From a virus: 35,767 bases of DNA. Numbering within the stretch: position 1 is the stretch's first letter; each line of letters begins with the position of its first letter. The position numbers and the translations under genes are program-made. Location of the stretch: the IMG/VR virus record IMGVR_UViG_3300025377_000002; one strand, written 5' to 3'. The notes below the pieces were generated by a model, which was given only the letters and a program-made list of their open reading frames with translations, ran no database searches and had not been told where the DNA came from. Below are positions 29,810 through 32,684 of the stretch, piece after piece.

Positions 29810-30280
29810 ATGTCTAAAAAATACGAACTAACTAACACAACTATACAGCACAACGGAGTAACACTCTATCAAATAAAAGCGTTAAAGAACTTTGGTAGTG
29901 TATCTAAAGGAGAACTCGGAGGATACATCGAAAAAGAAAAAAACTTATCACAAGAAGGCAACGCTTGGGTCTATGGCGATGCTCGTATCTATGGCGATGC
30001 TCAGGTCTATGGCGATGCTCAGGTCTATGGCGATGCTCAGGTCTATGGCGATGCTTGGGTCTATGGCGATGCTCGTATCTCTGGCGATGCTCGTATCTCT
30101 GACGATGCTCGTTTATGCGCTAAAAAAGAATACAAACAAGGCTGGTTTGTTGGCGGTGACGATCAGTATGTTCTTGGAGATTATGAAATAGTTGATATTG
30201 AAGAATCAAAAGAAGAAACTATAAGCATCGAAGGTAAAGAATATACATTATCAGAAATTAAAAAAGCACTTAGTAAATAA
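29810..30280 (+). CDS. hexapeptide-repeat (predicted beta-helix) protein
   Basis: 156 aa. Eight consecutive A-x-[VI]-[YS]-[GD]-D hexads: AWVYGD ARIYGD AQVYGD x3 AWVYGD ARISGD ARISDD. Confidence 0.7.
   Translation: MSKKYELTNTTIQHNGVTLYQIKALKNFGSVSKGELGGYIEKEKNLSQEGNAWVYGDARIYGDAQVYGDAQVYGDAQVYGDAWVYGDARISGDARISDDARLCAKKEYKQGWFVGGDDQYVLGDYEIVDIEESKEETISIEGKEYTLSEIKKALSK
29963..30106 (+). repeat. 8 x 18-bp tandem coding repeat (gct nnn ntc tnt gnc gat)
   Basis: Read directly. Three central units, gctcaggtctatggcgat, are identical. Confidence 0.9.
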
Positions 30281-31583: not shown

Positions 31584-31647
31584 GCAACAGAGTTTAGCCG
31601 TATCTCTCAAAAACGGCTGTTAAATTAAATACTTATTATGCAATCAT

Positions 31648-32445
31648 ATGCAATCATACAATAATAATCCAAAATTCAAAAGACACGTTGTCCAGAACAT
31701 CGAAAAAAATCAAGGCTGCAATGTAGGCTCTGGTGAATTCGCTGTTTGCCAAATACTTGGTGAAAAATTCCAAGAGAAACTCGATGTTGCTGTTGCTATA
31801 TTGTATCTTGGTGATACAATATTTAAAAACCTACCCAAAAATAAAGCAGATCAATTTGACTTTTATAATTCAATTCCAGCTGGAAAAGATTTGTCACAGG
31901 TCGTAAAGGTCGTAATTGATATGAAGATTGCTGTCTTAACTGACCCAACATTTGGTTGCAGACAATATGCATTCGATGATGGGAAAGCGGCGATTGACTC
32001 GATTGTTGAGTTACTTAGTCGTTCGAAACGAGAAGAGATTGATGAGTCAGCATGGTCTTTAGCAGAGTCGGCAGCAGAGTCGGCAGCAGAGTCAGCAGAA
32101 GAGGTGGCACGGTCAGCATGGTCTTTAGCAGAGTCGGCATCAGCGTCAGGATGGTCAGCAGCAGCAGAGGCAGCAGAGGCAGCACAGTCAGCAGCTGAGT
32201 CAGGATGGCAAGCAGCAGCAAAGGCAGCAGAGTCTGCAGTATGGTCAGCAGCAGAGTCTGCGTGGCAAGCAGCATGGTCAGCAGAGTCTGCACGGCCAGC
32301 ATGGTCAGCAGTATGGTCAGCAGAGTCAGCAGAGTCTGCAGGGTCGGCAGCAGAGGCAGCAGCAGAGTCTGCGTGGCAAGCAGCAGCAGAGTCAGCATAC
32401 GAACACATAGCTGCAAAACTTATTAAGCTATTGAAGAATGCGTAA
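31648..32445 (+). CDS. protein with a Trp/Ala/Ser/Glu 4-residue-periodic repeat C-terminal half (unknown function)
   Basis: 265 aa. An N-terminal ~130 aa non-repetitive domain is followed by AWSLAESAAESAAESAEE...SGWQAAAKAAESAVWSAAESAWQAAWSAESARPAWSAVWSAESAESAG... Confidence 0.7.
   Translation: MQSYNNNPKFKRHVVQNIEKNQGCNVGSGEFAVCQILGEKFQEKLDVAVAILYLGDTIFKNLPKNKADQFDFYNSIPAGKDLSQVVKVVIDMKIAVLTDPTFGCRQYAFDDGKAAIDSIVELLSRSKREEIDESAWSLAESAAESAAESAEEVARSAWSLAESASASGWSAAAEAAEAAQSAAESGWQAAAKAAESAVWSAAESAWQAAWSAESARPAWSAVWSAESAESAGSAAEAAAESAWQAAAESAYEHIAAKLIKLLKNA
32044..32400. repeat. GC-rich degenerate tandem repeat (units gcagagtcNgca / tggtcagca)
   Basis: Read directly. There are no stops in several frames on either strand, which produces the shadow ORFs 31863-32408, 32015-32416 and 32205-32426. 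Confidence 0.85.
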
Positions 32446-32493: not shown

Positions 32494-32684
32494 GAATCAA
32501 GCAGTAGCTAAAGCGGTCAATAGCTGAAAAAGTGCAGAAGACAGACGATTAGTTTTTGTACTCTAATAAAAGAATAAAGGGAAATAGACGTCGGGGGAGT
32601 GTGATGACTACCCAGCCTGACCCATCACTATAATACGTGGCTTAATCCTTTCTTACGCAGGTTCGAATCCTGTCTGCTTGATTC
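32494..32684 (+). ncRNA. tRNA-like RNA with canonical acceptor/D/T arms and a ~110-nt insert replacing or interrupting the anticodon arm
   Basis: Acceptor caagcag (32498-32504) pairs with ctgcttg (32674-32680), extendable to 11 bp (32494-32504 with 32674-32684). U8-A9 is 'ta'. D arm: gcta-aagcggtcaa-tagc (G10, A14, GG, A21). T arm: gcagg-ttcgaat-cctgt (32657-32673). Confidence 0.55.

What the first reader, a model, noticed from the sequence alone, without database searches (positions are those of the whole stretch)
31648..32445. GC-rich island encoding a Trp/Ala/Ser/Glu 4-residue-periodic repeat protein
In an AT-rich genome, 32044-32400 is built almost entirely from gcagagtcNgca (AESA) and tggtcagca (WSA) units. 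This gives ~120 aa of (A/S)-A-E-S-A-W-type repeats with at least 12 Trp at helical periodicity and a regular acidic stripe. It follows a non-repetitive ~130-aa N-terminal domain. The repeat is stop-free in several frames on both strands. I cannot place the protein in a family. It is vaguely reminiscent of Ala/Trp-periodic helical repeat proteins sometimes annotated as immunity-like, but that is only an impression. The start also shows a tandem duplication, atgcaatcat x2 (31638-31657). The gene lies directly upstream of, and is probably co-transcribed with, the tRNA-like RNA, so the two may form one functional unit.
Basis: partly seen in the sequence, partly recalled or inferred. Interest (0 to 1): 0.65.

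Follow-up and report, generated by a model that had tools for sequence, protein, structure and literature searches.

The report
Phage alanine-rich helical repeat protein
This is a real phage early gene: an unusual, partly eroded member of a very large, unnamed family of phage proteins (helical head, variable-length alanine-rich helical repeat, short tail helix) whose function nobody has studied, and it shows no link to the neighbouring tRNA-like RNA in other genomes.

Summary
The ORF 31648-32445 (+, 265 aa) is real. Gene plus flanks (2098 nt) are identical in four independently assembled metagenome contigs, so it is not an assembly artefact. The "GC island" (0.59 against 0.375) comes from amino-acid composition (Ala/Ser/Glu/Trp codons); third-position GC is 0.34, like the rest of the genome. 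The repeat period is 3.7 residues (alpha-helical), not 4, and there are 10 Trp, not 12.

The protein belongs to a large uncharacterised phage/prophage family: 4428 clusters at 50% identity, absent from Pfam and NCBIfam, with no PDB match by sequence or fold. The architecture is a ~140-aa all-alpha head with invariant Cx3C and Glu, an Ala-rich repeat of 0 to about 130 residues, and a conserved C-terminal helix. The window copy is aberrant. It has two in-frame deletions, has lost one Cys and the Glu, and carries the most acidic repeat of 228 members.

The same repeat module occurs in phage proteins that reach Pfam Imm5_like. None of 55 other loci carrying a family member has a tRNA-like RNA adjacent to the gene.

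My best guess, which is inference, is a non-enzymatic early protein that binds or inhibits a host or competitor protein.

The parts
31648..32445 (+). Protein-coding gene, 265 aa plus stop. It is a divergent member of a large unnamed phage/prophage family.
   Evidence: ORF. 161 homologues with the same architecture, best E 1e-48. The exact protein is on 8 contigs. The DNA is identical in 4 independent assemblies.
31648..32043 (+). N-terminal all-alpha head domain (residues 1-132), a degenerate version of the family's ~140-aa domain. It lacks two segments in frame (family 'ENERIVKGKYW...' and 'QDKRHQYLS'). It also carries C->S28, E->K60 and P->A48 at invariant or near-invariant positions.
   Evidence: Alignments A1, A2 and A4. 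AF2 pLDDT is 82-96 over this part. No Pfam, PHROG or PDB match.
32044..32403 (+). Ala/Ser/Glu/Trp alpha-helical repeat (residues 133-252) built of xSA / xSAA units. The period is 3.7 residues and the net charge about -17. This segment is the 'GC island'.
   Evidence: AF2 predicts four long helices (133-165, 169-191, 197-214, 225-264), with pLDDT below 50 for residues 182-224.
32395..32442 (+). Conserved C-terminal helix (AYEHIAAKLIKLLKNA). The family consensus is AAY..MA.KLI.LL.
   Evidence: Alignment A1. pLDDT is 89-97. The helix is present even in members with no repeat, such as P0123.
31637..31658 (+). 10-nt tandem duplication (TATGCAATCA x2.2) spanning the start codon. The upstream ATG (31638) is out of frame and gives an 8-codon ORF.
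   Evidence: TRF and the sequence itself.
32497..32682 (+). Adjacent tRNA-like element: acceptor, D and T arms with a 110-nt insert in the anticodon loop. It is listed only because the finding links it to the gene; the evidence does not show that it belongs to the gene.
   Evidence: Found by ARAGORN only in intron mode, not in default mode and not by Rfam. The fold z-score is -1.36. It is absent next to homologues.

Best explanation
What it is (shown). The ORF is a real, intact early-region gene of a ~35.7-kb tailed phage. It is a divergent member of a very large, unnamed and uncharacterised phage/prophage protein family. The family architecture has three parts. The first is a ~140-aa all-alpha N-terminal head whose hallmark is an invariant Cys-x3-Cys and Glu, with near-invariant Lys, His, His, Pro, Phe and Gly. 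The second is an Ala-rich alpha-helical repeat, xSA/xSAA with x mostly Glu, Arg or Trp. Its length ranges from 0 to about 130 residues and its 'flavour' differs between members. The third is a short conserved C-terminal helix. The high GC of the repeat follows from Ala, Ser, Glu and Trp codons. The 3.7-residue period places the Glu/Trp/Arg residues, each followed by Ser, on one face of Ala-rich helices. AlphaFold predicts these helices as long antiparallel helices.

How it probably works (inferred). The protein is non-enzymatic. It binds and blocks, or tethers, a host or competing-element protein early in infection. It would do so in the manner proposed for the Ala/Trp-repeat Imm5 and Imm5_like 'immunity' scaffolds, with the variable polar/aromatic stripe of the helical arm acting as the binding surface.

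The copy in this window. It has lost the family's conserved Cys/His/Glu site through two in-frame deletions plus C->S and E->K. It also has the most acidic arm seen in the sample. If it is active, it most likely acts through the repeat arm rather than the head.

The RNA. The gene is not a functional unit with the downstream tRNA-like RNA as far as comparative data can tell.
For: Real gene:
- The exact protein is on 8 contigs from JGI and ENA samples.
- 2098 nt are identical in 4 assemblies, while a neighbouring tandem repeat does vary between them.
- GC3 is 0.34, the same as the genome.

Family:
- 161 full-length hits.
- 1869 hits with the head-only profile, among 90%-identity clusters.
- 4428, 3404 and 1387 clusters at 50% identity at E<=1e-3, 1e-10 and 1e-30 in an exhaustive HMMER scan.
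- Members occur in MAGs of more than 10 phyla and on phage-sized contigs, and in cultured Xanthomonas phages such as KPhi1 gp60.

Architecture and variability.

Fold: the model is all-alpha and confident, with pLDDT 89 and pTM 0.82 for the minimal member and pLDDT 79 for the window protein.

Loss of conserved residues in the window copy.

Acidity outlier: net charge -17, rank 1 of 228, family median -2.

Helical period.

Genomic position. The gene always sits in early, replication, recombination or accessory modules and has no fixed partner. Neighbours include Rad52, SSB, Ant, RecT, YqaJ, primase, DNA methylases, ParB-like proteins, HNH and a Lar restriction-alleviation protein.

Link to Imm5_like. 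The same repeat plus C-terminal helix occurs in the phrog_18326 family, and three relatives of that family match PF21805 at 24.9-36.2 bits against a cut-off of 25. hhalign gives 94% when the repeats are included. Those phage Imm5_like genes also lie in early regions without a toxin gene. Imm5 is described as a mostly-alpha predicted immunity scaffold able to face structurally different toxins (PMC3239186, PMC3482391).
Against: - No experiment or annotated homologue gives a function. The binding/inhibitor role rests on genomic position and on resemblance to a family whose own function is only predicted.
- Similarity to Imm5_like vanishes when the low-complexity repeats are removed (0.9%), so it may be convergence of composition.
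- The invariant Cx3C and Glu of the family head could mark a metal or catalytic site. That would argue for an enzymatic or cofactor-dependent function of canonical members.
- The window copy lacks that site and could simply be decaying.
- The middle of the repeat is modelled with low confidence (pLDDT below 50 for residues 182-224).
- No target, operon partner or defence-system association was found.
Confidence: 0.45

Rival explanations
1. The protein is an accessory component of the phage's own DNA replication or recombination machinery. It would act as a scaffold or spacer that tethers partners through a stiff helical arm of adjustable length, rather than as an inhibitor directed against the host.
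For: The gene recurs beside Rad52/SSB (window), RecT, YqaJ exonuclease, primase (KPhi1; Vibrio phage analogue) and PD-(D/E)XK, AAA_24 and VapE genes. Glu-x3-Arg spacing on an Ala-rich helix (ESAARSAA) resembles stable single-helix or EAAAK-type spacers (general knowledge).
Against: No fixed neighbour exists; each recombination or replication family appears next to the gene in only 1-2 of about 45 loci. The arm varies from 0 to about 130 residues between members, which is hard to reconcile with a precise geometric role. The window copy has almost no Arg/Lys to pair with Glu.
Confidence: 0.2
2. In this phage the gene is a decaying or functionally neutral remnant. The head has lost its conserved site and the repeat is drifting low-complexity sequence.
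For: There are two in-frame deletions, and C43, H50 and E72 are lost, leaving only one of the hallmark residues. The composition is extreme relative to the family. No Shine-Dalgarno-like motif is evident before the start (sequence).
Against: A 265-codon frame is kept intact in slippage-prone DNA, whereas frameshifted relatives do exist (P0263). The sequence is identical in independent samples. The C-terminal helix and the helical periodicity are preserved. Other members also lack the Cys pair yet keep the whole architecture, once even duplicated (P0240).
Confidence: 0.15
3. The window copy has become an acidic DNA mimic of the Ocr, ArdA or Gam type. The regular Glu stripe on long helices would imitate the phosphate backbone and block a host restriction enzyme or RecBCD-type nuclease.
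For: The repeat has net charge -17 with 19 Glu at a 3.7-residue period. The gene is in an early position next to recombination genes and SSB, where gam/abc-type inhibitors sit in other phages (general knowledge). A Lar restriction-alleviation gene lies near a homologue.
Against: Foldseek finds no structural match to any DNA mimic. The family as a whole is near neutral, with a median repeat charge of -2 and abundant Arg, so the property is not ancestral. Ten bulky Trp share the stripe. There is no direct test.
Confidence: 0.12
4. The protein and the downstream tRNA-like RNA form one functional unit, a ribonucleoprotein or a co-regulated pair.
For: The RNA starts 52 nt after the stop codon on the same strand. 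No terminator-like site lies between them, and no promoter-like site was found in the gap.
Against: None of 55 other loci carrying a family member has a tRNA-like element adjacent to the gene; the few tRNA calls lie more than 1 kb away or on the other strand. Homologues are followed directly by other ORFs. The protein has no recognisable RNA-binding domain and its arm is strongly acidic.
Confidence: 0.05
5. It is not a gene: an assembly artefact, or a DNA-level repeat such as iterons or a recombination hotspot that happens to be open.
For: Low-complexity DNA that is open in three frames.
Against: The sequence is identical in four independent assemblies. Thousands of homologues keep the amino-acid pattern across very different GC contents. 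The codon-position signature is clear. No copy of the repeat occurs elsewhere in the genome.
Confidence: 0.01

Closest known systems
Pfam Imm5_like (PF21805) and Imm5 (PF14423): predicted polymorphic-toxin immunity proteins
   Same: Both are all-alpha and have an Ala-rich helical repeat with Trp, acidic and Arg residues at helical spacing, followed by a short C-terminal helix. Phage-borne Imm5_like proteins (P0425; Vibrio phage 367.14 ORF, phrog_18326) use both the SAAx and the AAWAAARDA flavours of the repeat. They sit in early regions without a toxin gene, like this family. hhalign gives 94% probability when the repeats are included.
   Different: The Pfam models do not hit the window protein (E<=10) or 19 relatives (E<=1). 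The head domains are not detectably related: 0.9% and 0.1%. No toxin gene is adjacent. The repeat here is Ser-rich. Imm5 itself has only a predicted function (PMC3482391, PMC3239186).
Xanthomonas phage KPhi1 gp60 (YP_010052618.1) and its copies in 12 other records of related Xanthomonas phage genomes, annotated 'hypothetical protein' where the record is annotated at all
   Same: It has the same family head domain (tblastn E 5e-13 to 6e-7), the same SAAx (E/R/W/D) repeat and the same C-terminal helix. It lies in the early region directly after the primase gene. These are the only cultured-phage members found.
   Different: It keeps the Cys-x3-Cys (GCSVGC) and the Glu of FEGLP. Its repeat is Arg-rich and roughly neutral. 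No tRNA-like RNA lies next to it.
DNA-mimic anti-restriction / anti-nuclease proteins (T7 Ocr, ArdA, lambda Gam)
   Same: Small early phage proteins, helical, with a regular array of acidic side chains. Similar genomic neighbourhood. This comparison rests on general knowledge and applies only to the very acidic window copy.
   Different: There is no sequence or fold similarity. Acidity is not a family trait. Trp-rich.
Single alpha-helix (ER/K) domains and engineered A(EAAAK)n helical linkers
   Same: Ala-rich helix with Glu and Arg spaced i to i+4 (ESAARSAA) in canonical family members, and variable length like a spacer (general knowledge).
   Different: AlphaFold predicts helix-turn-helix packing, not one long helix. 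Trp and Ser are prominent. The window copy has only 3 basic residues in 120.

Membership tests
Unnamed phage family defined here (head profile A3/A4; 4428 clusters at 50% identity) | Significant sequence match of the N-terminal head domain | tested here: met
   The window protein hits P0001-P0007 at E 1e-48 to 3e-22, with 34-59% BLASTP identity to the query. The hits cover the head.
Unnamed phage family defined here (head profile A3/A4; 4428 clusters at 50% identity) | Invariant Cys-x3-Cys and Glu (GCAVGC ... IFEGLP), with near-invariant His21 and His50 | tested here: not met
   The window has GCNVGS (second Cys replaced by Ser28) and IFKNLP (Glu replaced by Lys60). The His50 segment and the His21 segment are deleted.
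Unnamed phage family defined here (head profile A3/A4; 4428 clusters at 50% identity) | Ala-rich xSA/xSAA helical repeat between the head and the C-terminal helix | tested here: met
   Residues 133-252. The composition and 4-mers (AESA, AWSA) match the family's commonest 4-mers.
Unnamed phage family defined here (head profile A3/A4; 4428 clusters at 50% identity) | Conserved C-terminal helix AAY..MA.KLI.LL | tested here: met
   AYEHIAAKLIKLLKNA aligns with the family consensus.
Unnamed phage family defined here (head profile A3/A4; 4428 clusters at 50% identity) | Location in a phage or prophage early / DNA-metabolism region | tested here: met
   In the window the order is Rad52-like, SSB, Ant, then this gene. 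Homologue loci are similar.
Pfam Imm5_like (PF21805) / Imm5 (PF14423) | Match to the Pfam model at or above the gathering score | tested here: not met
   There are 0 Pfam families for the window protein at E<=10. No Imm5 or Imm5_like hit appears among 19 family members at E<=1.
Pfam Imm5_like (PF21805) / Imm5 (PF14423) | Profile-profile homology to bona fide members | tested here: inconclusive
   With the repeats included: 94% probability, E 1.5e-7 over 53 columns. With the repeats removed: 0.9%. A single head sequence against the profile gives 0.1%. The C-terminal helix alone gives 64%. The signal therefore rests on low-complexity repeat sequence.
Pfam Imm5_like (PF21805) / Imm5 (PF14423) | Gene neighbourhood with a polymorphic toxin (DYW deaminase, CdiA-CT) or a polyimmunity locus (PMC3482391) | tested here: not met
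   No toxin domain was found among 151 neighbouring ORFs of about 45 loci, nor in the window.
DNA-mimic anti-restriction proteins (Ocr/ArdA type) | Fold or sequence similarity to a known mimic | tested here: not met
   Foldseek against the PDB gives a best E of 1.5-2.2 and TM at most 0.26. hmmsearch against PDB sequences finds only low-complexity noise.
DNA-mimic anti-restriction proteins (Ocr/ArdA type) | Competition with DNA for the target enzyme | not testable with these tools
   This needs biochemistry. Only the net charge (-17) could be computed.
Diversity-generating retroelement (DGR) variable protein | A template repeat elsewhere in the genome, plus a reverse transcriptase | tested here: not met
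   No copy longer than 16 nt of the repeat region occurs elsewhere in the window. The sequence is invariant across samples.

The most novel reading that the evidence does not exclude
The family would be a new, very widespread class of phage early proteins. A head domain of previously unseen fold, carrying a Cys/His/Glu (possibly metal) site, would bear a length-variable Ala-rich helical arm whose Glu/Arg/Trp stripe is a fast-evolving binding surface. In this reading it is a phage-encoded, immunity-like counter-defence or anti-toxin scaffold, related in principle to Imm5-type proteins. The copy in this window, with its eroded head and hyper-acidic arm, would be a neo-functionalised derivative, for example a nucleic-acid mimic.
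Probability: 0.2. Interest if true: 0.7.

Novelty: new variant of a known kind. Interest (0 to 1): 0.4.

Why it matters
More than four thousand 50%-identity clusters of phage and prophage proteins share this architecture. None is in Pfam or NCBIfam, no solved structure matches by sequence or fold, and none has an assigned function. PHROGs touches the family only through the repeat. The head domain is confidently modelled yet matches no solved fold.

If the family proves to be a modular binder or inhibitor with a variable helical arm, it would add a large new group to the phage counter-defence and host-takeover repertoire. It would also give a biological role to the Ala/Trp-repeat 'Imm5-like' proteins.

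For this window specifically, the practical results are negative. The GC island is compositional. The gene is an atypical, possibly eroding member of the family. Comparative data do not tie it to the neighbouring tRNA-like RNA, so that RNA should be judged on its own.

Tried and rejected
- Curated libraries. I searched Pfam, NCBIfam, PADLOC and PHROGs with the window protein and with canonical members. Nothing informative came back. phrog_3416 hits only the repeat, and the head alone hits no PHROG.
- PDB by sequence, with the full and the head-only profiles: only low-complexity noise.
- AlphaFold models of the window protein and of the minimal member P0123, followed by Foldseek. The PDB gives no match (best E 1.5). 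BFVD returns only uncharacterised phage proteins.
- Viral-contig scan with the window protein: no relative confirmed.
- DGR or template-repeat idea: rejected.
- Repeat-number polymorphism: none among four near-identical phage contigs.
- Localised hypervariability between P0003 and P0004: it turned out to be a recombination breakpoint, with divergence continuing downstream.
- Conserved operon partner: none.
- Plasmid leading-region association: rejected. There are only 4 hits, all on large replicons; the one examined looks like a prophage region.
- Fusion partners in long family members: only a tandem duplication of the whole architecture and a frameshifted copy.
- Literature searches for phrog_3416, the repeat motif, PF21805 and PF14423: no paper.
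- The listing of cluster members did not find the exact sequence.
- Promoter and terminator scans were uninformative.
Full report
OBSERVATION. The window holds an intact ORF at 31648-32445 (+), 265 aa. GC rises to 0.59 over 32050-32349, against 0.375 for the whole window. Tandem Repeats Finder reports many overlapping, degenerate arrays in 32044-32397, with periods from 9 to 66 nt. It also reports the 10-nt duplication TATGCAATCA x2.2 at the start codon.

The repeat part of the protein (residues 133-252) has 49 Ala, 25 Ser, 19 Glu and 10 Trp, with only 3 basic residues. Several details of the finding need correction.
- There are 10 Trp, not 12 or more.
- The period is 3.67-3.71 residues (Fourier peak at 97-98 degrees). 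It is highly significant for Ala, Glu and all non-Ala/Ser/Gly residues, but not for Trp alone. The repeat is therefore a mixture of three- and four-residue units with alpha-helical periodicity, not a four-residue repeat.
- Three of six frames are open.
- The 'GC island' is not compositionally foreign. GC at codon positions 1, 2 and 3 is 0.68, 0.75 and 0.34, so the third position is as AT-rich as the rest of the genome. The excess GC is what GCA, GAG, TCN and TGG codons impose.
- The upstream ATG created by the duplication is out of frame and opens an 8-codon ORF. The ATG at 31648 gives an N-terminus (MQSYNNNPKFK) that matches homologues.

NOT AN ARTEFACT. Exactly this protein is encoded on 8 contigs from different JGI and ENA samples, most of them about 35.7 kb long, which is the size of the window. 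In the four contigs fetched, the gene plus 600 nt upstream and 700 nt downstream is identical base for base. Another tandem repeat 1.6 kb upstream differs in copy number between the same contigs. So there is no assembly collapse here, and no repeat-number variation in this population.

WHAT GENOME. The window is a tailed phage. A structural and terminase block lies on the minus strand (terminase large subunit, distant hits only). An early block on the plus strand holds a Rad52-like recombinase, SSB and an Ant-like protein, followed by this gene.

THE FAMILY. A search of about 5.8 billion proteins gave 161 hits, all 'hypothetical', 200-310 aa long and with the same layout. A profile of the head domain alone found 1869 clusters at 90% identity. 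An exhaustive HMMER scan of 1.84 billion 50%-identity representatives found 4428 proteins at E<=1e-3, 3404 at E<=1e-10 and 1387 at E<=1e-30. Nearly all have the domain at the N-terminus and a total length of 150-350 aa. Members occur in MAGs of Proteobacteria, Bacteroidota, Acidobacteriota, Planctomycetota, Gemmatimonadota, Actinomycetota, Chloroflexota, Patescibacteria and others. They are often on phage-sized contigs or in prophages within large chromosomes. Among cultured phages I found the family only in 13 records of a group of Xanthomonas phages (KPhi1 gp60 and relatives), annotated 'hypothetical protein' or not annotated. It is rare on plasmids.

ARCHITECTURE. The layout has three parts.
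- A ~140-aa head. In P0123 numbering the invariant residues are Cys39, Cys43 (GCAVGC) and Glu72 (IFEGLP). Near-invariant residues are Lys11, His21, Gly38, Gly42, His50, Pro60, Phe71 and Gly93.
- An Ala-rich repeat. In my sample of 238 proteins it covers 0 to 136 residues, with a median of 73. Pooled composition is A 46%, S 19%, E 8%, R 6% and W 5%. The commonest 4-mers are AESA, ARSA and AWSA. Some members use other flavours, such as AYAASSAAYAA or AADAAYAAA.
- A conserved C-terminal helix (AAY..MA.KLI.LL). It is present even when the repeat is absent, as in P0123 (160 aa).

AlphaFold models are all-alpha and confident for the head: pLDDT 89 and pTM 0.82 for P0123, and 82-96 for the head of the window protein. 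In the window protein the repeat is predicted as four long helices, and confidence is low in the middle (residues 182-224).

NO KNOWN RELATIVE OF THE HEAD. Pfam, NCBIfam and PADLOC give nothing. The PHROG hit of the window protein (phrog_3416, unknown function) is due to the repeat alone. The head alone hits no PHROG, and the repeat-less member hits none either. Profile searches of PDB sequences return only low-complexity noise. Foldseek of both models against the PDB has no hit better than E 1.5, with TM at most 0.26. In BFVD the only significant hit is another uncharacterised phage protein.

THE WINDOW COPY IS ATYPICAL. Relative even to its closest relatives (P0001-P0007), it lacks two in-frame segments. 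One is the end of helix 1 plus the KGxYW loop. The other is the segment that contains His50. It also has Ser for the second Cys, Lys for the invariant Glu and Ala for the near-invariant Pro. Of the hallmark polar residues only the first Cys and Lys11 remain. Its repeat has a net charge of about -17, the most negative of 228 members; the family median is -2. Other members that lack the Cys pair exist and still keep the whole layout. P0240 is a tandem duplication of the entire architecture. Loss of the site is therefore not unique to this copy and does not prove decay.

GENOMIC CONTEXT AND THE RNA. A census of the two plus-strand ORFs on each side of the gene in about 45 homologue loci found no recurrent partner. 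It found typical early-region genes instead: DNA methylases, ParB-like proteins, RecT, YqaJ, PD-(D/E)XK nucleases, SSB, Ant, VapE, HNH, ASCH and integrase. A Roseomonas prophage has a Lar restriction-alleviation gene two genes upstream.

The downstream 'tRNA-like RNA' is not recognised by ARAGORN in default mode or by Rfam, even at E<=10. In intron mode ARAGORN calls a cloverleaf at 32497-32682 with a 110-nt insert in the anticodon loop. The element as a whole does not fold unusually well (z = -1.36). Apart from copies of this same phage, none of 55 loci carrying a family member has such an element, or any tRNA, adjacent to the gene. Homologues are usually followed by another ORF within 0-130 nt. 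Comparative evidence therefore does not support a protein-RNA unit. Co-transcription in this phage remains possible, since no terminator-like site was found, but it is untested.

RELATION TO IMM5-LIKE PROTEINS. The only DNA-level hit of the region in cultured phages was to Vibrio phage 367.14. The ORF there (L062 2587-3282, 231 aa) carries the same SAARSAAESAAWSAA repeat and a similar C-terminal helix. Its head is different and belongs to phrog_18326. Among 48 relatives of that head, three match Pfam Imm5_like (PF21805) at 24.9, 34.7 and 36.2 bits against a cut-off of 25. One of them also shows a weak Imm5 hit. Within that one family the repeat switches between the SAAx and the AAWAAARDA flavours. 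These phage Imm5_like genes also sit in early regions, after a primase or among small early genes, without a toxin gene.

A profile-profile comparison of that family with the window's family gives 94% probability (E 1.5e-7) when the repeats are included. With the repeats removed it gives only 0.9%. The C-terminal helix alone gives 64%. So the two families share a repeat-plus-tail module of the same kind, but common descent is not demonstrable and Pfam membership fails.

Imm5 was defined computationally as a mostly alpha-helical predicted immunity protein. It is associated with DYW-clade deaminase and CdiA-CT toxins, and it was proposed to be a scaffold able to face structurally different toxins (PMC3239186, PMC3482391). 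I found no experimental work on it, nor any paper mentioning PF21805, phrog_3416 or the repeat motif.

OTHER IDEAS TESTED. There is no template repeat elsewhere in the genome, so no DGR. P0003 and P0004 are identical for the first 600 nt and then drop to about 57% identity through the rest of the gene and beyond. That pattern is a mosaic recombination breakpoint inside the gene rather than focal hypermutation. P0263 shows a frameshift into one of the other open frames of the repeat. This illustrates that the DNA is slippage-prone and that an intact frame is not automatic.

INTERPRETATION. Shown: the gene is real; it is a divergent member of a huge uncharacterised phage family; the GC peak is compositional; the repeat has helical periodicity; there is no comparative link to the RNA.

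Inferred: the position among early accessory and DNA-metabolism genes, the absence of any enzymatic signature in the arm, its extreme variability in length and surface residues, and the sharing of the module with Imm5_like-type phage proteins all point the same way. The most likely role is a stoichiometric binder or inhibitor of a host or competing-element protein, with the Glu/Arg/Trp stripe of the helical arm as the interface. I put this at roughly 0.35-0.45.

Rivals are a scaffold role in the phage's own replication or recombination (0.2), a decaying remnant in this particular phage (0.15), a DNA-mimic specialisation of this very acidic copy (0.12), and a unit with the RNA (0.05).

The invariant Cys-x3-Cys, His and Glu of the head in canonical members suggest a metal or ligand site whose role is unknown. 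The window copy lacks it.

VERDICT. The object is a new variant of a computationally predicted kind, the Ala/Trp-repeat helical immunity-like proteins, carrying an unrelated and structurally unmatched head. The family deserves attention because of its size and its complete lack of annotation. This particular copy is an eroded outlier. Interest 0.4.

Noticed in passing
window 32497-32682 (+): A tRNA-like element has an 11-bp acceptor-type stem (GAATCAAGCAG / CTGCTTGATTC), D and T arms, and a 110-nt insert in the anticodon loop. ARAGORN finds it only in intron mode ('Leu-taa'). Default ARAGORN and Rfam miss it. The insert is too short for a group I intron, and the overall fold z-score is -1.36. 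The element is conserved, identical, in the same phage's other contigs.
   Followed up: partly
window 29810-30280 (+), repeat at 29963-30111: The ORF just upstream of SSB contains 8.3 copies of an 18-nt unit encoding hexapeptide repeats (VYGDAQ / VYGDAR). Its length differs between otherwise near-identical metagenome contigs (144, 150, 156 and 174 aa, in steps of 6 aa). It is a genuine variable-number tandem repeat in this phage population, in contrast to the invariant repeat of the finding.
   Followed up: partly
L062 2587-3282 (Vibrio phage 367.14, PP179307.1); P0378-P0425: A second phage family (phrog_18326, head motif NPCADGW...LRCLPEH) carries the same SAAx/AAWAA repeat and C-terminal helix. 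Some members reach Pfam Imm5_like. phrog_3416 and phrog_21347 also match such repeats. The repeat-plus-tail module therefore appears on at least two unrelated heads.
   Followed up: partly
window 32044-32400: 13 of the window's 31 GAGTC sites (a GANTC subset, the HinfI / CcrM-type motif) and 21 CAGCAG sites are packed into these 357 nt. This is a by-product of Glu-Ser and Ala-Ala codons. Whether the density matters for restriction or methylation is unknown.
   Followed up: no
L060 / L005 (P0003, P0004): Two relatives from crustacean-associated metagenomes are 100% identical over the first 600 nt of the gene. They then fall to about 57% identity through the end of the head, the repeat and the downstream DNA. 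This is a mosaic recombination junction inside the gene.
   Followed up: yes
P0240 (600 aa), P0263 (333 aa): P0240 is a tandem duplication of the whole head-repeat-tail architecture, and both of its heads lack the Cys-x3-Cys. P0263 switches frame inside the repeat (SAAWSAA... becomes ...RRVRRQVRR), which shows how easily the multi-frame-open repeat DNA frameshifts.
   Followed up: no
window 31638-31664 (+): The 10-nt duplication at the start creates an out-of-frame ATG at 31638 that opens an 8-codon ORF (MQSYAIIQ*) overlapping the true start at 31648. No Shine-Dalgarno-like motif precedes either ATG.
   Followed up: no
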